This document shows, in pieces, positions 16,681 to 48,096 of a DNA stretch of 60,502 nt (position 1 is its first letter; each line of letters opens with the position of its first letter). The stretch lies in the IMG/VR virus record IMGVR_UViG_2061766007_000271; one strand, written 5' to 3'. The notes below the pieces were generated by a model. That model was not told the origin of the DNA, did no database searches, and saw only the letters and a list, made by a program, of their open reading frames with translations. Both the position numbers and the translations under genes were made by a program. This stretch comes from an uncultured virus (IMG/VR IMGVR_UViG_2061766007_000271) (taxonomy: Duplodnaviria; Heunggongvirae; Uroviricota; Caudoviricetes).

Positions 16681-16957
16681 CGAAATCAATGAAAAAATCC
16701 TGTGGCACAAATATATTCAATGCATGTGGGAAAATAACAACTAACAAAAAATCTATCAAAATCTACAATTTTCTGCTAAAATCTCCTCTTTGAAAAAAAT
16801 TGATTTAACTTTTTGTTTATATAGTATAATATAGTGTAAGAACAAGATTTTTCAGTGATTGATTGCGCCTTTCATTGAAGATAAACCATATTAGATTTAG
16901 ACCTCCTTTTGAGTGATGGCGCAATCATCCTCATCTGGAGGTTTTCTTTTTCCAGAA

Positions 16958-19499
16958 ATGAAGCAAACAAGCAGATACAGCAAGAGTTTTTATAGTGATG
17001 GATTGACTGATAAGAAGTATCAGGAAATCCATAAACTTGCTGTTTCTATTCAAAGTGCTAAGAACAAGATTTCTGGAATTGTCAATCAGGACTTGTTCAA
17101 ATATCTGGAAATNNNNNNNNNNNNNNNNNNNNNNNNNNNNNNNNNNNNNNNNNNNNNNNNNNNNNNNNNNNNNNNNNNNNNNNNNNNNNNNNNNNNNNNN
17201 NNNNNNNNNNNNNNNNNNNNNNNNNNNNNNNNNNNNNNNNNNNNNNNNNNNNNNNNNNNNNNNNNNNNNNNNNNNNNNNNNNNNNNNNNNNNNNNNNNNN
17301 NNNNNNNNGGTCATTAATTCCTTTGCAAACATCTCGTGGCATCTCAAGGATAGGAAGAAAATGACGATTCCGATGAAATACTCGAAGGATTTTCATGGTG
17401 AATTGAAGAGATATACCAACGGTACTGATACAGCATATACAATTTGTCTGGAAGATAATAATCAAATCAGAATGATTCTGTCATACGAAGATGAGCGAGA
17501 ATTTCCTGACGCAAGAAATAGAATCGTTGGTATAGATGTCAATTCCAAACACAATCTTATGACCTGCTCGAATGGATATGAGATAGATTTTGACAGGGAA
17601 CTAGTAGAAGAATTATCCAGAGAACTCAAAAAGATAGATGAATTAAAGAAAAGAAATTCAAATTATGAGATTGGTAAAAGGAAACAAAACAAGATAAATC
17701 ATCTGAACAGGGAGCTTATTTCTAAAATCAGAGAGGAAATAGCGAATCTTTGCAAAAGATTAAAGAAGCATCATTATCATCATGCAGTCTTTGAGGATTT
17801 GGATAATCAGTTTGGTTCTACATTTGCAAAAGACGAGAATGACTTAAATTACAATAGAAGATTGAGGATTTTACATCTTGGCGATTTGAAAAATGAATTT
17901 GAGCATATAGCAAGGAAATATGGAATAGCAGTTTCTCTGGTACAAAGTTTCTACACCAGTCAGACTTGTCCTAAATGTGGTTGCGTTGATAAAGAGAATA
18001 GAAAAGACCAGGAGCATTTCGAGTGCGTGGATTGTGGCTATAAAGCAAACGCAGACTTGAATGCTTCCAGAAACATCAGAAACAGAGTTGTCCAAGCAGT
18101 GCTTTGTGACTCGCTTCTCAAGAAGGACTNNNNNNNNNNGTCGAAGCACATGTTTCAGCAAGCGTTATGTGATATTGCAAAAGAGCAAAAGATAAGCAAT
18201 CATTTTATTTGGCAATTGTTGGATGATGTCTATGTATCCTATCAAAACAAATTCAATAATGTCAAGAGAAGACTAAAATTCCAGCATATCAGCGAATATC
18301 ATTTCAATTACTACAAGAGAAGTGGAAAAACAAAGAATGGAAGAGAATATCATTCAGGTGATTTCAAGAGCATCACAATCAAGCATGATGAAACACCTTT
18401 GAGCATTACTCTTACATATCTAGCCAGATACGGCTATTTTGGAATCGTGGATTATCTTCTTGAAAAGTTTGTTCAGGAAACAAATCCTGATAAAGAGAAA
18501 TTCTATGCTGATGTCCTTGACACGATTTACAAGTTTGGATTCACTAGACTGTTTGCCATTGCAATGAACAAAAGAAACAGAATAATCAAGCATTATTCAG
18601 AACGTCCTATTGAATTCCAGTCATTGAGTTTCAGAGGAAGAAGCCGTCTTTCTGAAGATATTGTTTCCATGAATGAAAATATGAAATCNNNNNNNNNNNN
18701 NNNNNNNNNNNNNNNNNNNNNNNNNNNNNNNNNNNNNNNNNNNNNNNNNNNNNNNNNNNNNNNNNNNNNNNNNNNNNNNNNNNNNNNNNNNNNNNNNNNN
18801 NNNNNNNNNNNNNNNNNNNNNNNNNNNNNNNNNNNNNNNNNNNNNNNNNNNNNNNNNNNNNNNNNNNNNNNNNNNNNNNNNNNNNNNNNNNNNNNNNNNN
18901 NNNNNNNNNNNNNNNNNNNNNNNNNNNNNNNNNNNNNNNNNNNNNNNNNNNNNNNNNNNNNNNNNNNNNNNNNNNNNNNNNNNNNNNNNNNNNNNNNNNN
19001 NNNNNNNNNNNNNNNNNNNNNNNNNNNNNNNNNNNNNNNNNNNNNNNNNNNNNNNNNNNNNNNNNNNNNNNNNNNNNNNNNNNNNNNNNNNNNNNNNNNN
19101 NNNNNNNNNNNNNNNNNNNNNNNNNNNNNNNNNNNNNNNNNNNNNNNNNNNNNNNNNNNNNNNNNNNNNNNNNNNNNNNNNNNNNNNNNNNNNNNNNNNN
19201 NNNNNNNNNNNNNNNNNNNNNNNNNNNNNNNNNNNNNNNNNNNNNNNNNNNNNNNNNNNNNNNNNNNNNNNNNNNNNNNNNNNNNNNNNNNNNNNNNNNN
19301 NNNNNNNNNNNNNNNNNNNNNNNNNNNNNNNNNNNNNNNNNNNNNNNNNNNNNNNNNNNNNNNNNNNNNNNNNNNNNNNNNNNNNNNNNNNNNNNNNNNN
19401 NNNNNNGAAAATTCCAGTGCGTTCATTCCCAAAGTCAATTCGAAGGAAAAGGTGAGGGAAATACTGGAAAGGTTGCGTAACAGCTTGATTTGTGTATAA
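16958..19499 (+). CDS. tnpB: TnpB/Cas12f-like RuvC nuclease (~540 aa visible; contigs probably mis-ordered)
   Basis: GIDVN, VFEDL, YTSQTCPKCG..CVDCG, ADLNASRNI. Confidence 0.9.
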
Positions 19500-19568
19500 T
19501 AAATCAAGTAAAGAATCTAATCCAGAATTTACTATGGTTGTAGATTTTGGTAGATTTTAAGTTACGCA
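19474..19568 (+). ncRNA. omega-RNA-like 3' scaffold of TnpB element
   Basis: closing stem TGCGTAAC/GTTACGCA enclosing two hairpins at right end. Confidence 0.55.
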
Positions 19569-19631
19569 TGAAAACAAAACAAAAAAATTGGTCGGGATGC
19601 AAAAAAATCCCGACCATATATTTATTGACGG

Positions 19632-31924: not shown

Positions 31925-32179
31925 ATAGGTTTTTCACATTTTCTTGAAAAAAGTGCGTTTTCCCTGCAAGGGAATGCCACATGTATTCAATCAGCACGGA
32001 CATGGAGAACGAAAGAGGGCTGGACACCTATATCCAGCCCTCTGTGGCAGACGGAGACACAAATGCCTNNNNNNNNNNNNNNNNNNNNNNNNCGAATGTA
32101 TTCAATATGACCATCCCCTGTGTGGAAACAAAAAAACGAGGGACTGGCGAAAACCAGTCCCTCTATTTGGTGGCAAGCG

Positions 32180-32407
32180 TTACTTGCCAAAACTCTTCTC
32201 TTGGCACTTGAGGCAAAGCCCGCTTATGAGCGTTTCACGCTTTTCAGTGGACAGGTTGGGGAATGCGTCCTGCATCAACGCTCCATTCCGCCTTTTCTCA
32301 ATGCCCTCGTTGGGGACTTCCACAACGGTCTGCTCTCCGCAGAAGGGGCAGACGATTGTGAGGACGGTTGTGGTGGCGTTTTCGGTTACGTTTGCGATGT
32401 TAAGCAT
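32180..32407 (-). CDS. zinc-binding phage protein (CPFCG...QDAFP.LS...RE.LISG.C..CQ)
   Basis: motif; start MLNIAN. Confidence 0.8.
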   Translation of the reverse strand: MLNIANVTENATTTVLTIVCPFCGEQTVVEVPNEGIEKRRNGALMQDAFPNLSTEKRETLISGLCLKCQEKSFGK

Positions 32408-32442
32408 TTTTGTTCCTTTTGTTGGGGGGTGTGGGGGTTTAT

Positions 32443-32515
32443 GCCGAATTGAGGAAAGGGCAAATGCCCTGCCTCTCGGCACATACATAATATGCCAATT
32501 CAAGACGGATTTCAA
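32443..32515 (-). promoter_or_regulatory. class B promoter + leader hairpin
   Basis: consensus match. Confidence 0.85.
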
Positions 32516-32572
32516 AGCACACGATGAAAAAAGACCAAAAACAATGAAATTTTTTCCGCAACAGGAAAAGAC

Positions 32573-33067
32573 GAATGGGGTGTGGGGAGCAAGCGACCAG
32601 AAAAGCGACCAGAACGCATTTGATTGCAAGGGGGTATGGGTGATAAGGGGACAAGCCATTGTTGCGAATACAGAGGCTCTGGAAAGGGAATATGCAAAAG
32701 CCAGACATGCAAGGGGGTGTCTGGGGAATAAGTCAGCCAGAATGCAATCGCCAATCTGTGGGCAGGCGAATGCAACCAGAAAGCCGAATGGGGGTCTGGG
32801 GAGCAAGGTGGCAAGAAACGGGCATGTATTCAATACCAGAACTGCTACTGAAAAAACACAAATGGGCGTATGGGTGGAAAGCGGTCATTCAAGACAAGGG
32901 TTGCGAGTGCATTGATGGTCGCCTGTTGATGCGACTGGGGGTGTGGGGTGAAAGACAGGTTTCGCATTTCCAATGCATTCGTGCAGTCGAGATGCAAGGG
33001 GGCATATGGGTGGAATGAATGAGAGCCGTTGCAAGGCAAGCAAAAAAACGCAACACTGGGTATGGGT
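32573..33067 (+). repeat. non-coding array of ~8 GGGGTRTGGG-like motifs at 53-83 bp spacing
   Basis: copies near 32577, 32630, 32713, 32790, 32864, 32937, 32998, 33058. Confidence 0.65.
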
Positions 33068-33200
33068 GCAAAAACGCATTCATGCAATGGATTGAATATG
33101 CATGAATGGACAAGAGCGGGGTGTCCCCACAGGTGGAAACAAGACAGGTGGTATATGACGTGGACTGTGGTGCAGACGCAATAGGCGGTCCAAAGTCAGC

Positions 33201-33273
33201 TCCGTAACAACTTGAGAAATCAAGCAAAGAATCTTATCAGAATTGTAGATTTTGGTAGATTTTAAGTTACGGA
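33201..33273 (+). ncRNA. orphan minimised TnpB omega-RNA-like scaffold / IS right-end remnant
   Basis: aligns to 19474-19568 with compensatory closing stem. Confidence 0.55.
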
Positions 33274-33347
33274 CATTCGCAGACACAGAAAAATCCCCTG
33301 TCGCTCCACAATGCGACAGGGGATTCCACACGCCTGTTTCCAATCCG

Positions 33348-33704
33348 CTATGGATTGGTCTTGGAAACGAGGCTCTGCACCAGTTCACATCCCTCTTTCG
33401 TCAAGGAATGCACTGGTATTTCATAAAACTGGTTGTCTTCATGACCCATTCCATAAAGCACCACCTTCTTCTCAATTATGCCAGCGTCAATGAGGAATTC
33501 CTCTATCCAGCAGTCGCCGAACCTGTTGTTCACGGCAATCATCGTGTCTGGCAGAATGCCGAAGTCGCAGGTGAGCGTAGCCATGATAACGCCTGTCTTC
33601 ACATCAACTGCCCACAGCAGAAGCGTGTTGTGCCTGATGTGCCTGTCCACAAGCAGTTCCACCTTCGCTCCGTTCAACGCACCCACTATGAATTCGTTTT
33701 TCAT
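33348..33704 (-). CDS. hypothetical protein (DUF4313-like, tentative)
   Basis: ATLT.....L......V.N......EFL...GI; start MKNEFI. Confidence 0.7.
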   Translation of the reverse strand: MKNEFIVGALNGAKVELLVDRHIRHNTLLLWAVDVKTGVIMATLTCDFGILPDTMIAVNNRFGDCWIEEFLIDAGIIEKKVVLYGMGHEDNQFYEIPVHSLTKEGCELVQSLVSKTNP

Positions 33705-33729
33705 GTTTCTCTCTGCCTCCGTCAATGAC

Positions 33730-33758
33730 ATTATATGCCAAAACAATAGTGATTTCAA
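33730..33758 (-). promoter_or_regulatory. class B promoter without leader hairpin
   Basis: TTGAAA-N17-TATAAT. Confidence 0.8.
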
Positions 33759-34257
33759 CAAAGGCACTTGATATTTTCCACGCCATTGGTGAAAAAGGCA
33801 ACCGCTTGGACTCCAAAGCCACGCATGCATTGAATGCATTCGCATTCCTTGATCAAATATTGAGACACGCCTTTGAGGGGCAACACGCCTGTCTGCAAAA
33901 GCCATTTGCTTCAATACGAAAGCCACGCACGAAATCTCGTCCACGATTTCCAGACTGGCGAGATAAAGCCATGTTCGTGATGATGTGCCTTGCTTCACAG
34001 CCGAAATGCAGACCTCTGCTTCCTTAATGGCGAGTACAGTCTCTGTCTTTCATAAGACGAGGAATGTGCGTCGCCAGTCCCATATGCATTGCGTATTCAA
34101 TGCCGATGCCATGGATGGAAAAACAAAAAATGAGGACTGGCAGAAACAGAGCCTTCAGCCGAAGCAAGCCACCACAACCTGCGTATGATACGGCTTTNNN
34201 NNNNNNNNNNNNNNNNNNNNNNNNNNNNCCAATTCATTCCACGCACAAAACCTGACT

Positions 34258-37827: not shown

Positions 37828-38598
37828 ATGAATAAGAACATTAAGATTGCGAAAGAACTAGTCAAGATTGCCAAAAGCCTTGTTGCTCTTGACGAAGAGG
37901 GAGACGGAAGTGGATTTCAAGTGATTCATGACATGGAGAATTCGGGCATGCATCCTCTTGACAACGAATTGGAGATAGGCAGGTTGAAATGGGAACGACT
38001 TGACAATGCCGAAAAACAAGGAAAGAAGTACATACTTTATAATTACAATAATTATCATGGTTTATCGAGAATTTGTGCCTGTAAGAATTTTGGCGATGTG
38101 AGAAAAGGTCATTTAGGTGGATTCGTTGAATCGGAAAATAATCTTTCACACGATGGAGACTGCTGGATATATGACGATGCAGCAGTTTATGAAAATGCTC
38201 AAGTTTCTGAAAATGCACATATTCGTGACAATTCTAAGATCTATGGCAATGCGAAGGTCTATGGCAAGGCTTCCATTTCTGGCAATGCCGAAGTTTGTGG
38301 CAATGTCAAGATATATGACACTGTTTATATTATTCAAAATGCGAATATTTGTGGCAATTCTGAGATTTATGGCAATGCAAGGGTTTATCAAAATGCTATG
38401 GTTTGTGGCGATGCGAAGGTCTATGGCAATGCCAAGATTTCTGAGCATGCATATGTTACTGGTGGTGAAGTCTATGACCATGCCAGTATCTATGGCAATG
38501 CAGACGTTAGTCAAAGTACAATCCATGGCACGGCTCGCATTTCTGGCGAGGCAATGATTTCTGGCGATGACGTTTCCGAAGGTGAAATCACCGAATAA
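37828..38598 (+). CDS. hexapeptide-repeat (left-handed beta-helix) protein with shared N-terminal peptide
   Basis: GDV.KG.LGGFVESE.NLS..G.CWIYD.A.V then VYGNAK repeats. Confidence 0.85.
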   Translation: MNKNIKIAKELVKIAKSLVALDEEGDGSGFQVIHDMENSGMHPLDNELEIGRLKWERLDNAEKQGKKYILYNYNNYHGLSRICACKNFGDVRKGHLGGFVESENNLSHDGDCWIYDDAAVYENAQVSENAHIRDNSKIYGNAKVYGKASISGNAEVCGNVKIYDTVYIIQNANICGNSEIYGNARVYQNAMVCGDAKVYGNAKISEHAYVTGGEVYDHASIYGNADVSQSTIHGTARISGEAMISGDDVSEGEITE

Positions 38599-47608: not shown

Positions 47609-47627
47609 TAATAGTCATTCATGAAAC

Positions 47628-47662
47628 AAAAAGCGACGCTGGAAATCCAGCGTCGCTTTTTT
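47628..47662. terminator. bidirectional terminator
   Basis: AAAAAGCGACGCTGGA/TCCAGCGTCGCTTTTT. Confidence 0.85.
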
Positions 47663-47700
47663 ATTAAAGTTAATTAAAATTCAATAGTTTTATTTTAATC

Positions 47701-48096
47701 TTATGAAACCATTCCTTCTTTTTCCAATTCAATTTTGACTTGACTCACAATGTTTTGCCCAAATTCGTCATAAATAATATCATAATTGTTGGAATAGTCT
47801 TCGTTTATAGTTTTTAGCGTTGTTTCTTCAAATAGATTGTTTTTGTTGAAGAAATCTTTCATTGGTGAGAGCATCTTTTCTTCAATTTTCCAGCCGATTT
47901 CTATCATTTTAGAACCAAGTTTATCTTGGCTTATCCTCTTAAATTTTCCATTCCCATCCATTATGTCGTCCATTGCTTCATTCATCATGCTTCGGATAAA
48001 TCTTTTAACGATTTTCTTTATCACAAAATCATCGGCAGCAACAAGATTTTTTGCAATTCTTATCAATTCCTTCGCAATTTTCACATTCTTGTCCAT
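47701..48096 (-). CDS. low-GC hypothetical protein with shared N-terminal peptide
   Basis: MDKNVKIAKELIRIAKNLVA; AAGGAGA SD. Confidence 0.85.
   Translation of the reverse strand: MDKNVKIAKELIRIAKNLVAADDFVIKKIVKRFIRSMMNEAMDDIMDGNGKFKRISQDKLGSKMIEIGWKIEEKMLSPMKDFFNKNNLFEETTLKTINEDYSNNYDIIYDEFGQNIVSQVKIELEKEGMVS

What the first reader, a model, noticed from the sequence alone, without database searches (positions are those of the whole stretch)
33201..33290. Orphan, minimised TnpB guide-RNA scaffold 14 kb from its nuclease
Seen: 33201-33273 aligns with the TnpB element's right end (19474-19568), with 29 identical nt (TTGTAGATTTTGGTAGATTTTAAGTTACG). The closing stem is compensated (TGCGTAAC/GTTACGCA vs TCCGTAAC/GTTACGGA). 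Hairpin 1 is shortened to CTTGA-GAAA-TCAAG and hairpin 2 is shortened but still paired. No tnpB or left end is visible upstream. Known: TnpB omega-RNA is the right-end scaffold plus ~16-20 nt flank, and can act in trans. Inference: a stand-alone guide (flank CATTCGCAGACACAG...) reprogramming the phage TnpB against a rival phage or host, or a remnant of a related IS.
Basis: partly seen in the sequence, partly recalled or inferred. Interest (0 to 1): 0.75.

Follow-up and report, generated by a model that had tools for sequence, protein, structure and literature searches.

The report
Gene-less TnpB guide-RNA module in phage
A 73-base stretch in a large rumen phage is a real copy of the folded guide-RNA tail of the phage's own jumping-gene nuclease (TnpB) without the nuclease gene; such stand-alone guides are already known, and whether this one is used is untested.

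Summary
Window 33201-33273 (+) is a tnpB-less copy of the structured right end of the TnpB element at 16742-19569: 29 nt exact, 67 of 73 shared columns identical, covariance-model score 74.2 bits, E 6e-16. All 6 known copies fold into the same three-way junction, with 7 of 34 pairs changed on both sides.

The element is IS607-derived. A relative carries a serine recombinase next to tnpB. The left end carries an inverted copy of the GTAGATTTT repeats. The scaffold matches no Rfam family, RAGATH-18 included.

The orphan starts at the first base of the closing stem and ends at the transposon end. No tnpB, leader or left-end sequence lies upstream. Contigs from other rumen samples show a second minimised variant with a different short hairpin, and an apparently empty site that breaks at the right end.

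Best reading: a stand-alone omega-RNA / solo right end. If transcribed, it would guide TnpB in trans to the uninserted allele of its own site. No promoter, RNA data or foreign target was found, so an inert relic remains a strong rival. It is a new member of a known kind.

The parts
33201..33273 (+). Orphan guide-RNA scaffold / solo right end. It has a closing stem P1 (TCCGTAAC/GTTACGGA), a short hairpin P2 (CTTGA-GAAA-TCAAG) and a hairpin P3 that carries two GTAGATTTT repeats.
33274..33293 (+). Candidate guide: the flank read out of the right end (CATTCGCAGACACAGAAAAA). The true first base may be 33275 if the element ends one base later, as in the tnpB-linked copies. It overlaps the T-tail of the minus-strand terminator.
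   Evidence: All copies diverge right after CGGA/CGCA(+T). The site is unique in the window.
33291..33325 (-). Terminator-like hairpin (13-bp stem, then TTTTTCTGTG on the minus strand) of the converging gene 33348-33704.
   Evidence: The consensus scan did not call it.
33348..33704 (-). Converging 118-aa gene with no Pfam family; its promoter repeat is at 33730-33758.
33111..33200 (+). About 90 nt between an ATTGAATATGCAT motif and the scaffold, absent from the apparent empty-site contig of run X5. It contains a hairpin (about 33160-33195). It has no similarity to the tnpB element. Whether it belongs to the inserted unit is unresolved.
16742..16790 (+). Left end of the tnpB element: three inverted GTAGATTTT-like repeats. 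Its reverse complement matches the right end at 24 of 27 positions and aligns with the orphan over 41 nt.
16826..16957 (+). tnpB promoter-proximal leader with a covarying long-range helix and a terminator-like hairpin just before the ATG.
16958..19499 (+). tnpB, broken by runs of N and with its pieces out of order relative to the 537-aa relatives: aa 1-51, then 235-505, then 53-234, then 509-537. RuvC D/E/D and the zinc finger are present.
19474..19569 (+). tnpB-linked right-end scaffold. P2 holds the last tnpB codons and the stop codon. The element ends at ...GTTACGCAT.
19570..19589 (+). Flank (guide) of the tnpB-linked copy, followed by a bidirectional terminator hairpin at 19589-19616.

Best explanation
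33201-33273 is a gene-less, stand-alone copy of the right-end module of an IS607-derived TnpB element. That element is multi-copy in a clade of large rumen phages. The module doubles as the 3' scaffold of the element's guide RNA (omega RNA). That much is shown. The following steps are inferred. If the + strand is transcribed, it gives a 73-nt three-way-junction scaffold followed by a guide of about 20 nt read from the neighbouring DNA (ATTCGCAGACACAG...). TnpB made from a full copy would load this RNA in trans. It would then cut genomes of the same phage lineage that lack the insertion at this site, where a TAM directly abuts that flank. Repair from an inserted genome would copy the insertion in (homing), or the uninserted sibling would be lost. 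The module was probably produced or moved by the serine recombinase TnpA. Its 5' edge (TCCGTAAC) is the complement of the right terminus and so mimics a left terminus. That would explain why the copy begins exactly at the closing stem.
For: Identity. The orphan shares 67 of 73 columns with the window's tnpB-linked right end and 65 of 73 with L014, and scores 74.2 bits. In 5 of 5 tnpB-linked loci (window, L003, L004, L014, L015) the same scaffold overlaps the tnpB stop codon, and homology stops right after CGGA/CGCA+T.

RNA structure. 94.8% of 192 cells are paired. 7 of 34 pairs changed on both sides (1 of 500 shuffles reach this), and slid controls give at most 1 (the alignment was fitted to the model). 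G-U pairs and fold z-scores favour the + strand.

IS607 ancestry. A Resolvase-domain ORF (E 3e-24) abuts tnpB in L014. The ends carry subterminal short repeats and an imperfect inverted repeat, as described for IS607 ends in PMC6188088 (passages read).

Exact module boundaries and no other element sequence upstream.

Other samples (Logan contigs). X6 record 23 has the loose end TCAGTTCCGTAGCAGTCTGAATTTTCAGAT followed by 33226-33273 with 2 differences. That is a second minimised scaffold whose short P2 (TCTGA-ATTT-TCAGA) differs from the window's at two stem pairs, both compensated. 0 of 120 TnpB family representatives have a C-terminus matching that reading frame. X5 record 15 carries 33273-33313 preceded by 110 unlike letters, so it looks like an empty site that breaks at the right end.

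An effector is present in the same window.

Stand-alone omega RNAs that work in trans are on record (PMC10691335 and PMC10055086, passages read).
Against: No sigma-70-like + strand promoter lies in 32400-33200, and no RNA run holds the stretch, so expression is untested.

The orphan lacks all tnpB-internal sequence. In other TnpB systems the scaffold extends about 100 nt or more into or beyond the gene (187-nt scaffold for ISFba1, PMC11061315, passages read). Here 45 nt inside the tnpB 3' region are invariant in 4 of 4 relatives, which may be a further RNA part that the orphan lacks. The window's own copy differs in that stretch.

Hairpin-tip deletions that keep pairing can arise by replication slippage without selection.

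The related 255-kb phage contig has 0 complete orphans and one 31-nt right-end relic, so debris of this element exists.

The evidence from other samples rests on 151-185-nt contigs at depth 2-3, shown only in part. Their locus assignment rests on 4-13 shared bases upstream.

The sequence left of the orphan does not match the left side of the apparent empty site, so the left boundary of the insertion is unknown.

No TAM could be derived.
Confidence: 0.5

Rival explanations
1. Inert relic. A full tnpB element once sat here, or a right end was carried in by recombination, and all but the right end was lost. The fold survives only because the copy is young and because deletions in palindromes tend to remove hairpin tips symmetrically. 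It is neither transcribed nor used.
For: No promoter was found. No upstream omega-RNA portion is present. A 31-nt right-end relic exists in the related phage. The orphan is only 6 of 73 positions away from the resident copy, so it may be recent. It sits in a roughly 780-nt non-coding stretch that tolerates insertions.
Against: The 5' edge coincides to the base with the start of the closing stem, and the 3' edge with the transposon end. No element sequence lies upstream. A second minimised variant has a different, compensated short P2 in an independent sample. No relative shows a full element at the site.
Confidence: 0.38
2. One reading: a stand-alone guide that re-aims the phage TnpB at a foreign target, either a rival unrelated phage or the host chromosome, like a one-spacer CRISPR array.
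For: An effector and an orphan scaffold lie in one genome. Trans use of stand-alone omega RNAs is documented (PMC10691335, passages read).
Against: The guide is ordinary local flank and overlaps the tail of the neighbouring terminator. The window has no second match. The 8 exact 16-mer hits in IMG/VR do not extend, which fits chance. The host genome is unknown and could not be searched.
Confidence: 0.05
3. A DNA-level or other RNA role unrelated to guiding. Examples are a TnpA binding platform or mini-element moved as DNA only, or a + strand structural element such as a transcript stabiliser or insulator between converging units.
For: The stretch carries the full set of subterminal GTAGATTTT repeats that make up the inverted ends. 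Both scaffold copies lie about 20 nt from a minus-strand terminator.
Against: G-U pairs and compensated pairs point to RNA, not DNA. No canonical left end lies within 4 kb upstream: the motif scan found 0 hits between 29224 and 33245. No recombinase gene is visible in the window or in the 255-kb relative beside tnpB. Only one such copy is in the window.
Confidence: 0.07

Closest known systems
Stand-alone (effector-less) omega RNAs of OMEGA systems and PATE-like gene-less IS200/IS605 derivatives (Altae-Tran et al. 2021 as summarised in PMC10691335; Meers et al., PMC10055086; passages read)
   Same: It is a transposon right-end scaffold with a flank-derived guide, has no nuclease gene of its own, and has a compatible TnpB elsewhere in the same genome.
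   Different: Here the parent is IS607-derived and resides in a large phage. The copy is only 73 nt and has no recognisable left end, so it is not a two-ended PATE. Trans activity is untested.
IS607-family TnpB with RAGATH-18-derived reRNA, e.g. ISFba1 (PMC11061315, passages read)
   Same: TnpB is linked to a serine-recombinase transposon, the guide RNA sits at the right end, and the guide is read from the flank.
   Different: There is no RAGATH-18 match at any threshold tried. The scaffold overlaps the tnpB stop codon, whereas the reRNA is separate from the coding sequence. The protein is 537 aa against about 390 aa. The ISFba1 scaffold is 187 nt, against 81-101 nt of conserved structure here. 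The flanks are not G-rich AGGAG/GAGGG-like.
IS607 / IS1535 transposon ends (PMC6188088, passages read)
   Same: Short repeated motifs sit inside both ends, and an imperfect inverted repeat lies near the ends.
   Different: Here the inverted repeat runs to the very termini (ATGCG.../...CGCAT). The GG terminus is not conserved (CGCAT in the window copy). The recombinase is absent from 4 of 5 tnpB-linked loci seen.
Cas12f / TnpB solved structures (best match 9nzq_A, E 1.9e-14)
   Same: RuvC plus zinc-finger (TNB) core; PF07282 at E 2e-18.
   Different: Only the C-terminal 200 residues or so match by sequence. There is no CRISPR array. Membership in Cas12f is not claimed.

Membership tests
TnpB omega RNA (right-end guide RNA) | The scaffold lies at or overlaps the 3' end of tnpB and ends at the transposon right end. 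| tested here: met
   The parent family meets it in 5 of 5 tnpB-linked loci. The orphan is homologous to that scaffold.
TnpB omega RNA (right-end guide RNA) | Conserved secondary structure supported by covariation. | tested here: met
   Across 6 sequences, 94.8% of cells are paired and 7 of 34 pairs changed on both sides, against at most 1 in slid controls. The alignment was fitted to the model.
TnpB omega RNA (right-end guide RNA) | A variable guide immediately outside the right end. | tested here: met
   All 6 copies diverge right after CGGA/CGCA(+T/C).
TnpB omega RNA (right-end guide RNA) | Transcribed, bound by TnpB and directing TAM-dependent cleavage. | not testable with these tools
   No RNA holder is listed, and no nucleic-acid docking tool is available.
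Stand-alone omega RNA | No effector or transposase inside the unit, and a compatible effector elsewhere in the genome. | tested here: met
   There is no tnpB remnant outside 16912-19496 and none near the orphan. tnpB has its catalytic residues 13.6 kb away.
Stand-alone omega RNA | Evidently mobilised: several sites, or an insertion polymorphism. | tested here: inconclusive
   One apparent empty-site contig (X5 record 15) and orphan-like variants in X5 and X6. These are short low-depth contigs and the left boundary is unresolved. The window has one copy and the 255-kb relative has none.
IS607 family | Serine-recombinase tnpA next to tnpB. | tested here: inconclusive
   Present in 1 of 5 tnpB-linked loci (L014; PF00239, E 3e-24; only 34 residues precede the catalytic domain). 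Absent beside tnpB in the window, L003 and L004. L015 is too short to tell.
IS607 family | Subterminal short repeats and an imperfect inverted repeat near the ends; no target duplication; GG termini. | tested here: inconclusive
   The repeats and the inverted repeat are met. The termini read CGGAT or CGCAT, so GG is not constant. Possible 5-bp flank repeats (L004 ATCGA, window GAAAA) may be chance.
RAGATH-18 reRNA (Rfam) | A match to the Rfam covariance model. | tested here: not met
   0 matches at gathering score in the window. None at E up to 1 in L003, L004 and L014, or at E up to 10 in 32900-33500.
PATE / MITE-type two-ended mini-element | Both a left end and a right end flank a gene-less core. 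| tested here: not met
   No left-end repeat lies between 29224 and 33245. The best inverted match of the upstream 600 nt to the orphan is 7 nt. Only the 5' arm of P3 and the 5' half of P1 resemble a left end.

The most novel reading that the evidence does not exclude
The 73-nt three-way junction is the complete functional scaffold of this 537-aa phage TnpB. These rumen phages scatter such gene-less guide cassettes through their genomes, so that one nuclease serves several guides. Each guide cuts sibling phage genomes that lack the insertion, which would amount to RNA-guided homing or marker exclusion between co-infecting viruses, and a natural intermediate between a single-guide transposon and a multi-guide CRISPR-like arrangement. 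It would also be one of the shortest natural TnpB scaffolds.
Probability: 0.15. Interest if true: 0.75.

Novelty: new member of a known kind. Interest (0 to 1): 0.4.

Why it matters
Stand-alone omega RNAs are thought to let one transposon nuclease act at more sites, and may be a step towards CRISPR arrays. Few have been described in viruses. If this 73-nt module suffices to load a 537-aa TnpB, it defines a very compact guide scaffold, which is of practical interest for small editors. It would also suggest that large phages use TnpB as an RNA-guided homing or exclusion device against siblings. If it is a relic, it still marks the ends and the guide-RNA structure of an uncharacterised TnpB family: an IS607-derived family with at least 120 protein clusters listed (76-100% identical to the query), on metagenome contigs of up to 413 kb.

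Tried and rejected
- **Phage collection.** blastn of 32400-34190 against the GenBank phage collection gave no match.
- **Whole genome.** None is held for the window, so neither the host nor the rest of the phage could be searched.
- **Rfam.** Nothing at gathering score. Only sub-threshold chance hits (PyrR, mir-459 and others) at lax E-values.
- **tRNA scan.** None found.
- **Collection scans for more scaffolds.**
  - 20-mer in IMG/VR: one unrelated contig (L001) and the 255-kb relative.
  - 5'-half and 3'-half degenerate patterns in IMG/VR: only the two tnpB-linked copies of that same contig.
  - 5'-half pattern in JGI metagenomes: 0 hits.
  - Protein-alignment scan of GTDB genomes: only distant partial TnpBs in an Aquificota MAG and a Clostridium MAG, none with the scaffold.
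- **Guide target search.** Nothing beyond chance.
- **Synteny in the 255-kb relative.** The zinc-ribbon gene 32180-32404 has a 52%-identical homologue with an ordinary intergenic region of about 170 nt and no scaffold. Gene 33348-33704 has no homologue. So there is no true empty-site comparison there.
- **RNA evidence.** No RNA holder is listed.
- **Read laying.** It used assembled contigs only. Parts without cover, and the depth figures, are not evidence of absence or of copy number. The excess depth over 33220-33289 in run X1 (102 against about 15) only says that right-end-like sequence occurs in other contigs of that sample.
- **Model hit at 47618-47707.** It scores 21.7 bits and is an AT-rich stretch plus a terminator, so it was rejected.
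- **TAM.** I tried to derive one from the left flanks of the window and L004 and from the X5 contig, and found no common motif.
- **Cas12a repeat.** The resemblance of AAUUUAC...GUAGAU to the Cas12a repeat is recalled, was not tested, and is not used.
- **Earlier notes of this scan.** None on this window or sequence. A word search returned similar orphan-scaffold cases in other genomes.

Full report
**1. Observation.**
The finding's coordinates and sequence details are correct.
- Window 33201-33273 aligns with 19474-19568.
- The two share an exact 29-mer. The 20-mer core occurs 3 times in the window against 0.01 expected from shuffles.
- Both stretches fold, as + strand RNA, into the same three-way junction: an 8-bp closing stem P1, a hairpin P2 and a hairpin P3.
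- The orphan folds at -24.9 kcal/mol (z -4.76). The tnpB-linked copy folds at -39 kcal/mol (z -7.98). The minus strands give z -0.58 and -4.27.
- The one difference in P1 is compensated: G-C against C-G.

**2. What the parent element is.**
- The window looks like part of a large phage. It encodes a sigma factor, an endolysin and an exonuclease. It also carries about 28 copies of a minus-strand promoter-plus-leader repeat.
- The ORF next to the 19474-19568 scaffold carries the Cas12f1-like TNB domain (PF07282, E 2e-18) and visible RuvC D, E and D residues.
- Relatives are 537-aa proteins. Two copies lie on a 255-kb IMG/VR contig, at 84-85% identity. At least 120 protein clusters, 76-100% identical to the L004 query, were listed (1023 hits in all at E up to 1e-5). 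They are almost all from metagenomes, on contigs of up to 413 kb, and many sit on contigs of about 2 kb, as multi-copy repeats do.
- In the window the gene is interrupted by runs of N. Its pieces lie out of order relative to those relatives: aa 1-51, then 235-505, then 53-234, then 509-537. I cannot tell whether this is mis-scaffolding of a repeat or a real rearrangement.
- The nearest solved structures are Cas12f and TnpB proteins (best 9nzq, E 1.9e-14).
- In the metagenome locus L014, a Resolvase-domain ORF (PF00239, E 3e-24) abuts the tnpB start codon. The family therefore descends from IS607-type elements.
- The ends agree with that. The reverse complement of the left end matches the right end at 24 of 27 positions in the window. 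The L004 left end matches the window right end at 28 of 32 positions, including the terminal CGCAT.
- Both ends carry two or three GTAGATTTT-like repeats. This is the pattern of subterminal repeats plus an imperfect inverted repeat described for IS607-family ends (PMC6188088, passages read).
- L003 and L014 lack the left-end repeats. These copies may be truncated on the left.

**3. The scaffold family.**
- A covariance model built from four copies, the orphan among them, finds exactly two hits in the window: 101.8 and 74.2 bits.
- It finds the two tnpB-linked copies in the 255-kb relative, plus a weak 31-nt relic, and one copy each in L014 and L015.
- In all 5 tnpB-linked loci, the 5' arm of P2 encodes the last TnpB residues (...LICV) and the stop codon. 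Homology ends right after CGGA/CGCA plus T.
- Across the 6 copies, 94.8% of 192 cells are paired. 7 of 34 pairs are changed on both sides (1 of 500 shuffles reach this), and slid controls give at most 1. The alignment was fitted to the model, which favours the structure.
- P3 length varies among the tnpB-linked copies themselves. L003 has a shorter P3 than the orphan. Only the short P2 is specific to the orphan, as expected once the hairpin no longer has to encode protein.
- The scaffold matches no Rfam family, including the RAGATH-18 motif of characterised IS607 TnpBs (PMC11061315, passages read).

**4. The orphan.**
- It is 67 of 73 positions identical to the window's tnpB-linked right end and 65 of 73 to L014.
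- Homology starts at the first base of P1 and stops at the transposon end.
- Upstream there is no tnpB remnant, no leader or left-end similarity, and no left-end repeat for 4 kb.
- It lies on the + strand, in a non-coding gap of about 780 nt between two minus-strand units. It sits about 20 nt from the terminator hairpin of gene 33348-33704. The tnpB-linked right end has the same position relative to its neighbouring terminator.
- The 5' half of P1 (TCCGTAAC) is the complement of the right terminus, so it resembles a left terminus. Recombinase action on this internal mimic could generate or move the module. That would explain the exact 5' edge. This is inference only.

**5. Other samples.**
- The stretch occurs in bovine gut metagenomes, and no RNA run is listed.
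- I laid Logan contigs of one probable source run (X1) and three independent runs (X4, X5, X6) on 32100-34190.
- X6 holds 33331-33536 with 1 difference. It also holds a 185-nt contig whose loose end TCAGTTCCGTAGCAGTCTGAATTTTCAGAT is followed by 33226-33273 with 2 differences. That is a second minimised scaffold. Its P2 is a 5-bp stem with a 4-nt loop whose first two pairs differ from the window's on both sides. Its P1 has an A-to-G change that keeps a G-U pair.
- No TnpB of 120 family representatives ends in the reading frame this would give. The contig is therefore unlikely to be tnpB-linked.
- This P2 resembles the tip of the long P2 of L003, whereas the window's resembles the base of the long P2 of the resident copy. 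The two may have been minimised independently.
- X5 holds an orphan-like piece (33193-33236, 4 differences) with unlike sequence upstream. It also holds a contig with 33273-33313 (2 differences) preceded by 110 unlike letters ending ...ATTGAATATGCATTGC. That looks like an allele without the insertion, breaking at the right end.
- The window has ATTGAATATGCAT at about 33098-33110. About 90 nt plus the scaffold would then be extra in the window, and the left boundary is unresolved.
- All of this rests on short contigs at depth 2-3, and the tool listed only part of them.

**6. Function.**
- For a working trans guide: the intact + strand fold, the exact module boundaries, a structure-preserving variant in another sample, a nuclease that appears intact in the same genome, and the documented trans use of stand-alone omega RNAs (PMC10691335 and PMC10055086, passages read).
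- Against: no consensus promoter on the + strand and no expression data.
- Also against: the orphan lacks everything upstream of P1, whereas characterised omega RNAs are longer. A 45-nt stretch inside the tnpB 3' region is invariant in 4 of 4 relatives, though not in the window's copy.
- Also against: right-end debris exists in the relative.
- The flank has no other target that I could find. By the logic of omega systems, its target is the uninserted allele of its own site.

I put the working trans-guide reading at 0.5, an inert relic at 0.38, a foreign-target guide at 0.05, and another role at 0.07.

**7. Comparison and novelty.**
This is a stand-alone omega RNA / solo right end, which is a known kind of object. 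It is not a PATE or MITE, because no left end was found. It is not a RAGATH-18 reRNA, because the model test was not met. New here are the host (a large rumen phage), the uncharacterised 537-aa IS607-derived TnpB family with a compact scaffold that overlaps its stop codon, and the 73-nt size of the orphan. Earlier notes of this scan describe similar orphan scaffolds in archaea, a giant virus and another phage. I did not test those and use them only as context. I rate it a new member of a known kind, with interest 0.4.

Noticed in passing
window 6780-34830, minus strand: About 28 copies of a 60-95-nt unit: a TTGAAATC-17-TATAAT promoter followed by a conserved 5' hairpin (GCCGAGAGG...CCTC...CGGC). 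Each copy sits ahead of a small minus-strand gene. Many also have a TGTATTCAAT...GAAAACAAAAAAA motif after the preceding gene. It looks like a phage early-gene array with a shared leader.
   Followed up: partly
window 32540-33130: About 600 nt without a credible ORF, holding about 9 irregularly spaced C-rich motifs on the minus strand (CACCCATACCCCCTTGCA-like). They look like iterons or protein-binding sites. The function is unknown.
   Followed up: no
window 16826-16957; L003 3166-3301; L004 3166-3301: The tnpB 5' leader has a 10-bp long-range helix, paired in 30 of 30 cells, with 3 pairs changed on both sides in 3 sequences. It overlaps a terminator-like hairpin followed by a T run just before the ATG. 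This looks like an attenuator or riboswitch-type control of tnpB.
   Followed up: partly
window 16958-19499: The tnpB coding pieces lie out of order between runs of N (aa 1-51, 235-505, 53-234, 509-537 of the 537-aa relatives). This is either mis-scaffolding of a multi-copy repeat or a rearranged gene.
   Followed up: partly
L002 3490-3525 (minus strand) = G001 232023-232053: A 31-nt tip of the right end, 97% identical to the orphan, sits in a gap of about 50 nt between two genes of the related 255-kb phage, just ahead of a ribosome-binding site. There is no tnpB remnant nearby.
   Followed up: partly
L003 4772-4816, L004 4769-4813, L014 4465-4509, L015 322-366 (alignment A4 columns 133-177): 45 nt inside the tnpB 3' region (encoding QRVVSTVLRDELLKK) are identical in 4 of 4 relatives, synonymous sites included, while the neighbouring codons vary. 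The window's own copy differs here. It may be an upstream part of the omega RNA.
   Followed up: partly
L014 2426-2962: The serine recombinase next to tnpB has only 34 residues ahead of its catalytic domain, so the usual N-terminal DNA-binding domain seems to be missing. No left-end repeats are found upstream. This may be a left-truncated element inserted after a DUF7487 gene.
   Followed up: no
window 38160-38575: An 18-nt periodic repeat inside ORF 37828-38598, which matches phrog_5070 and phrog_7964 (unknown function). It is a hexapeptide-like repeat protein.
   Followed up: no
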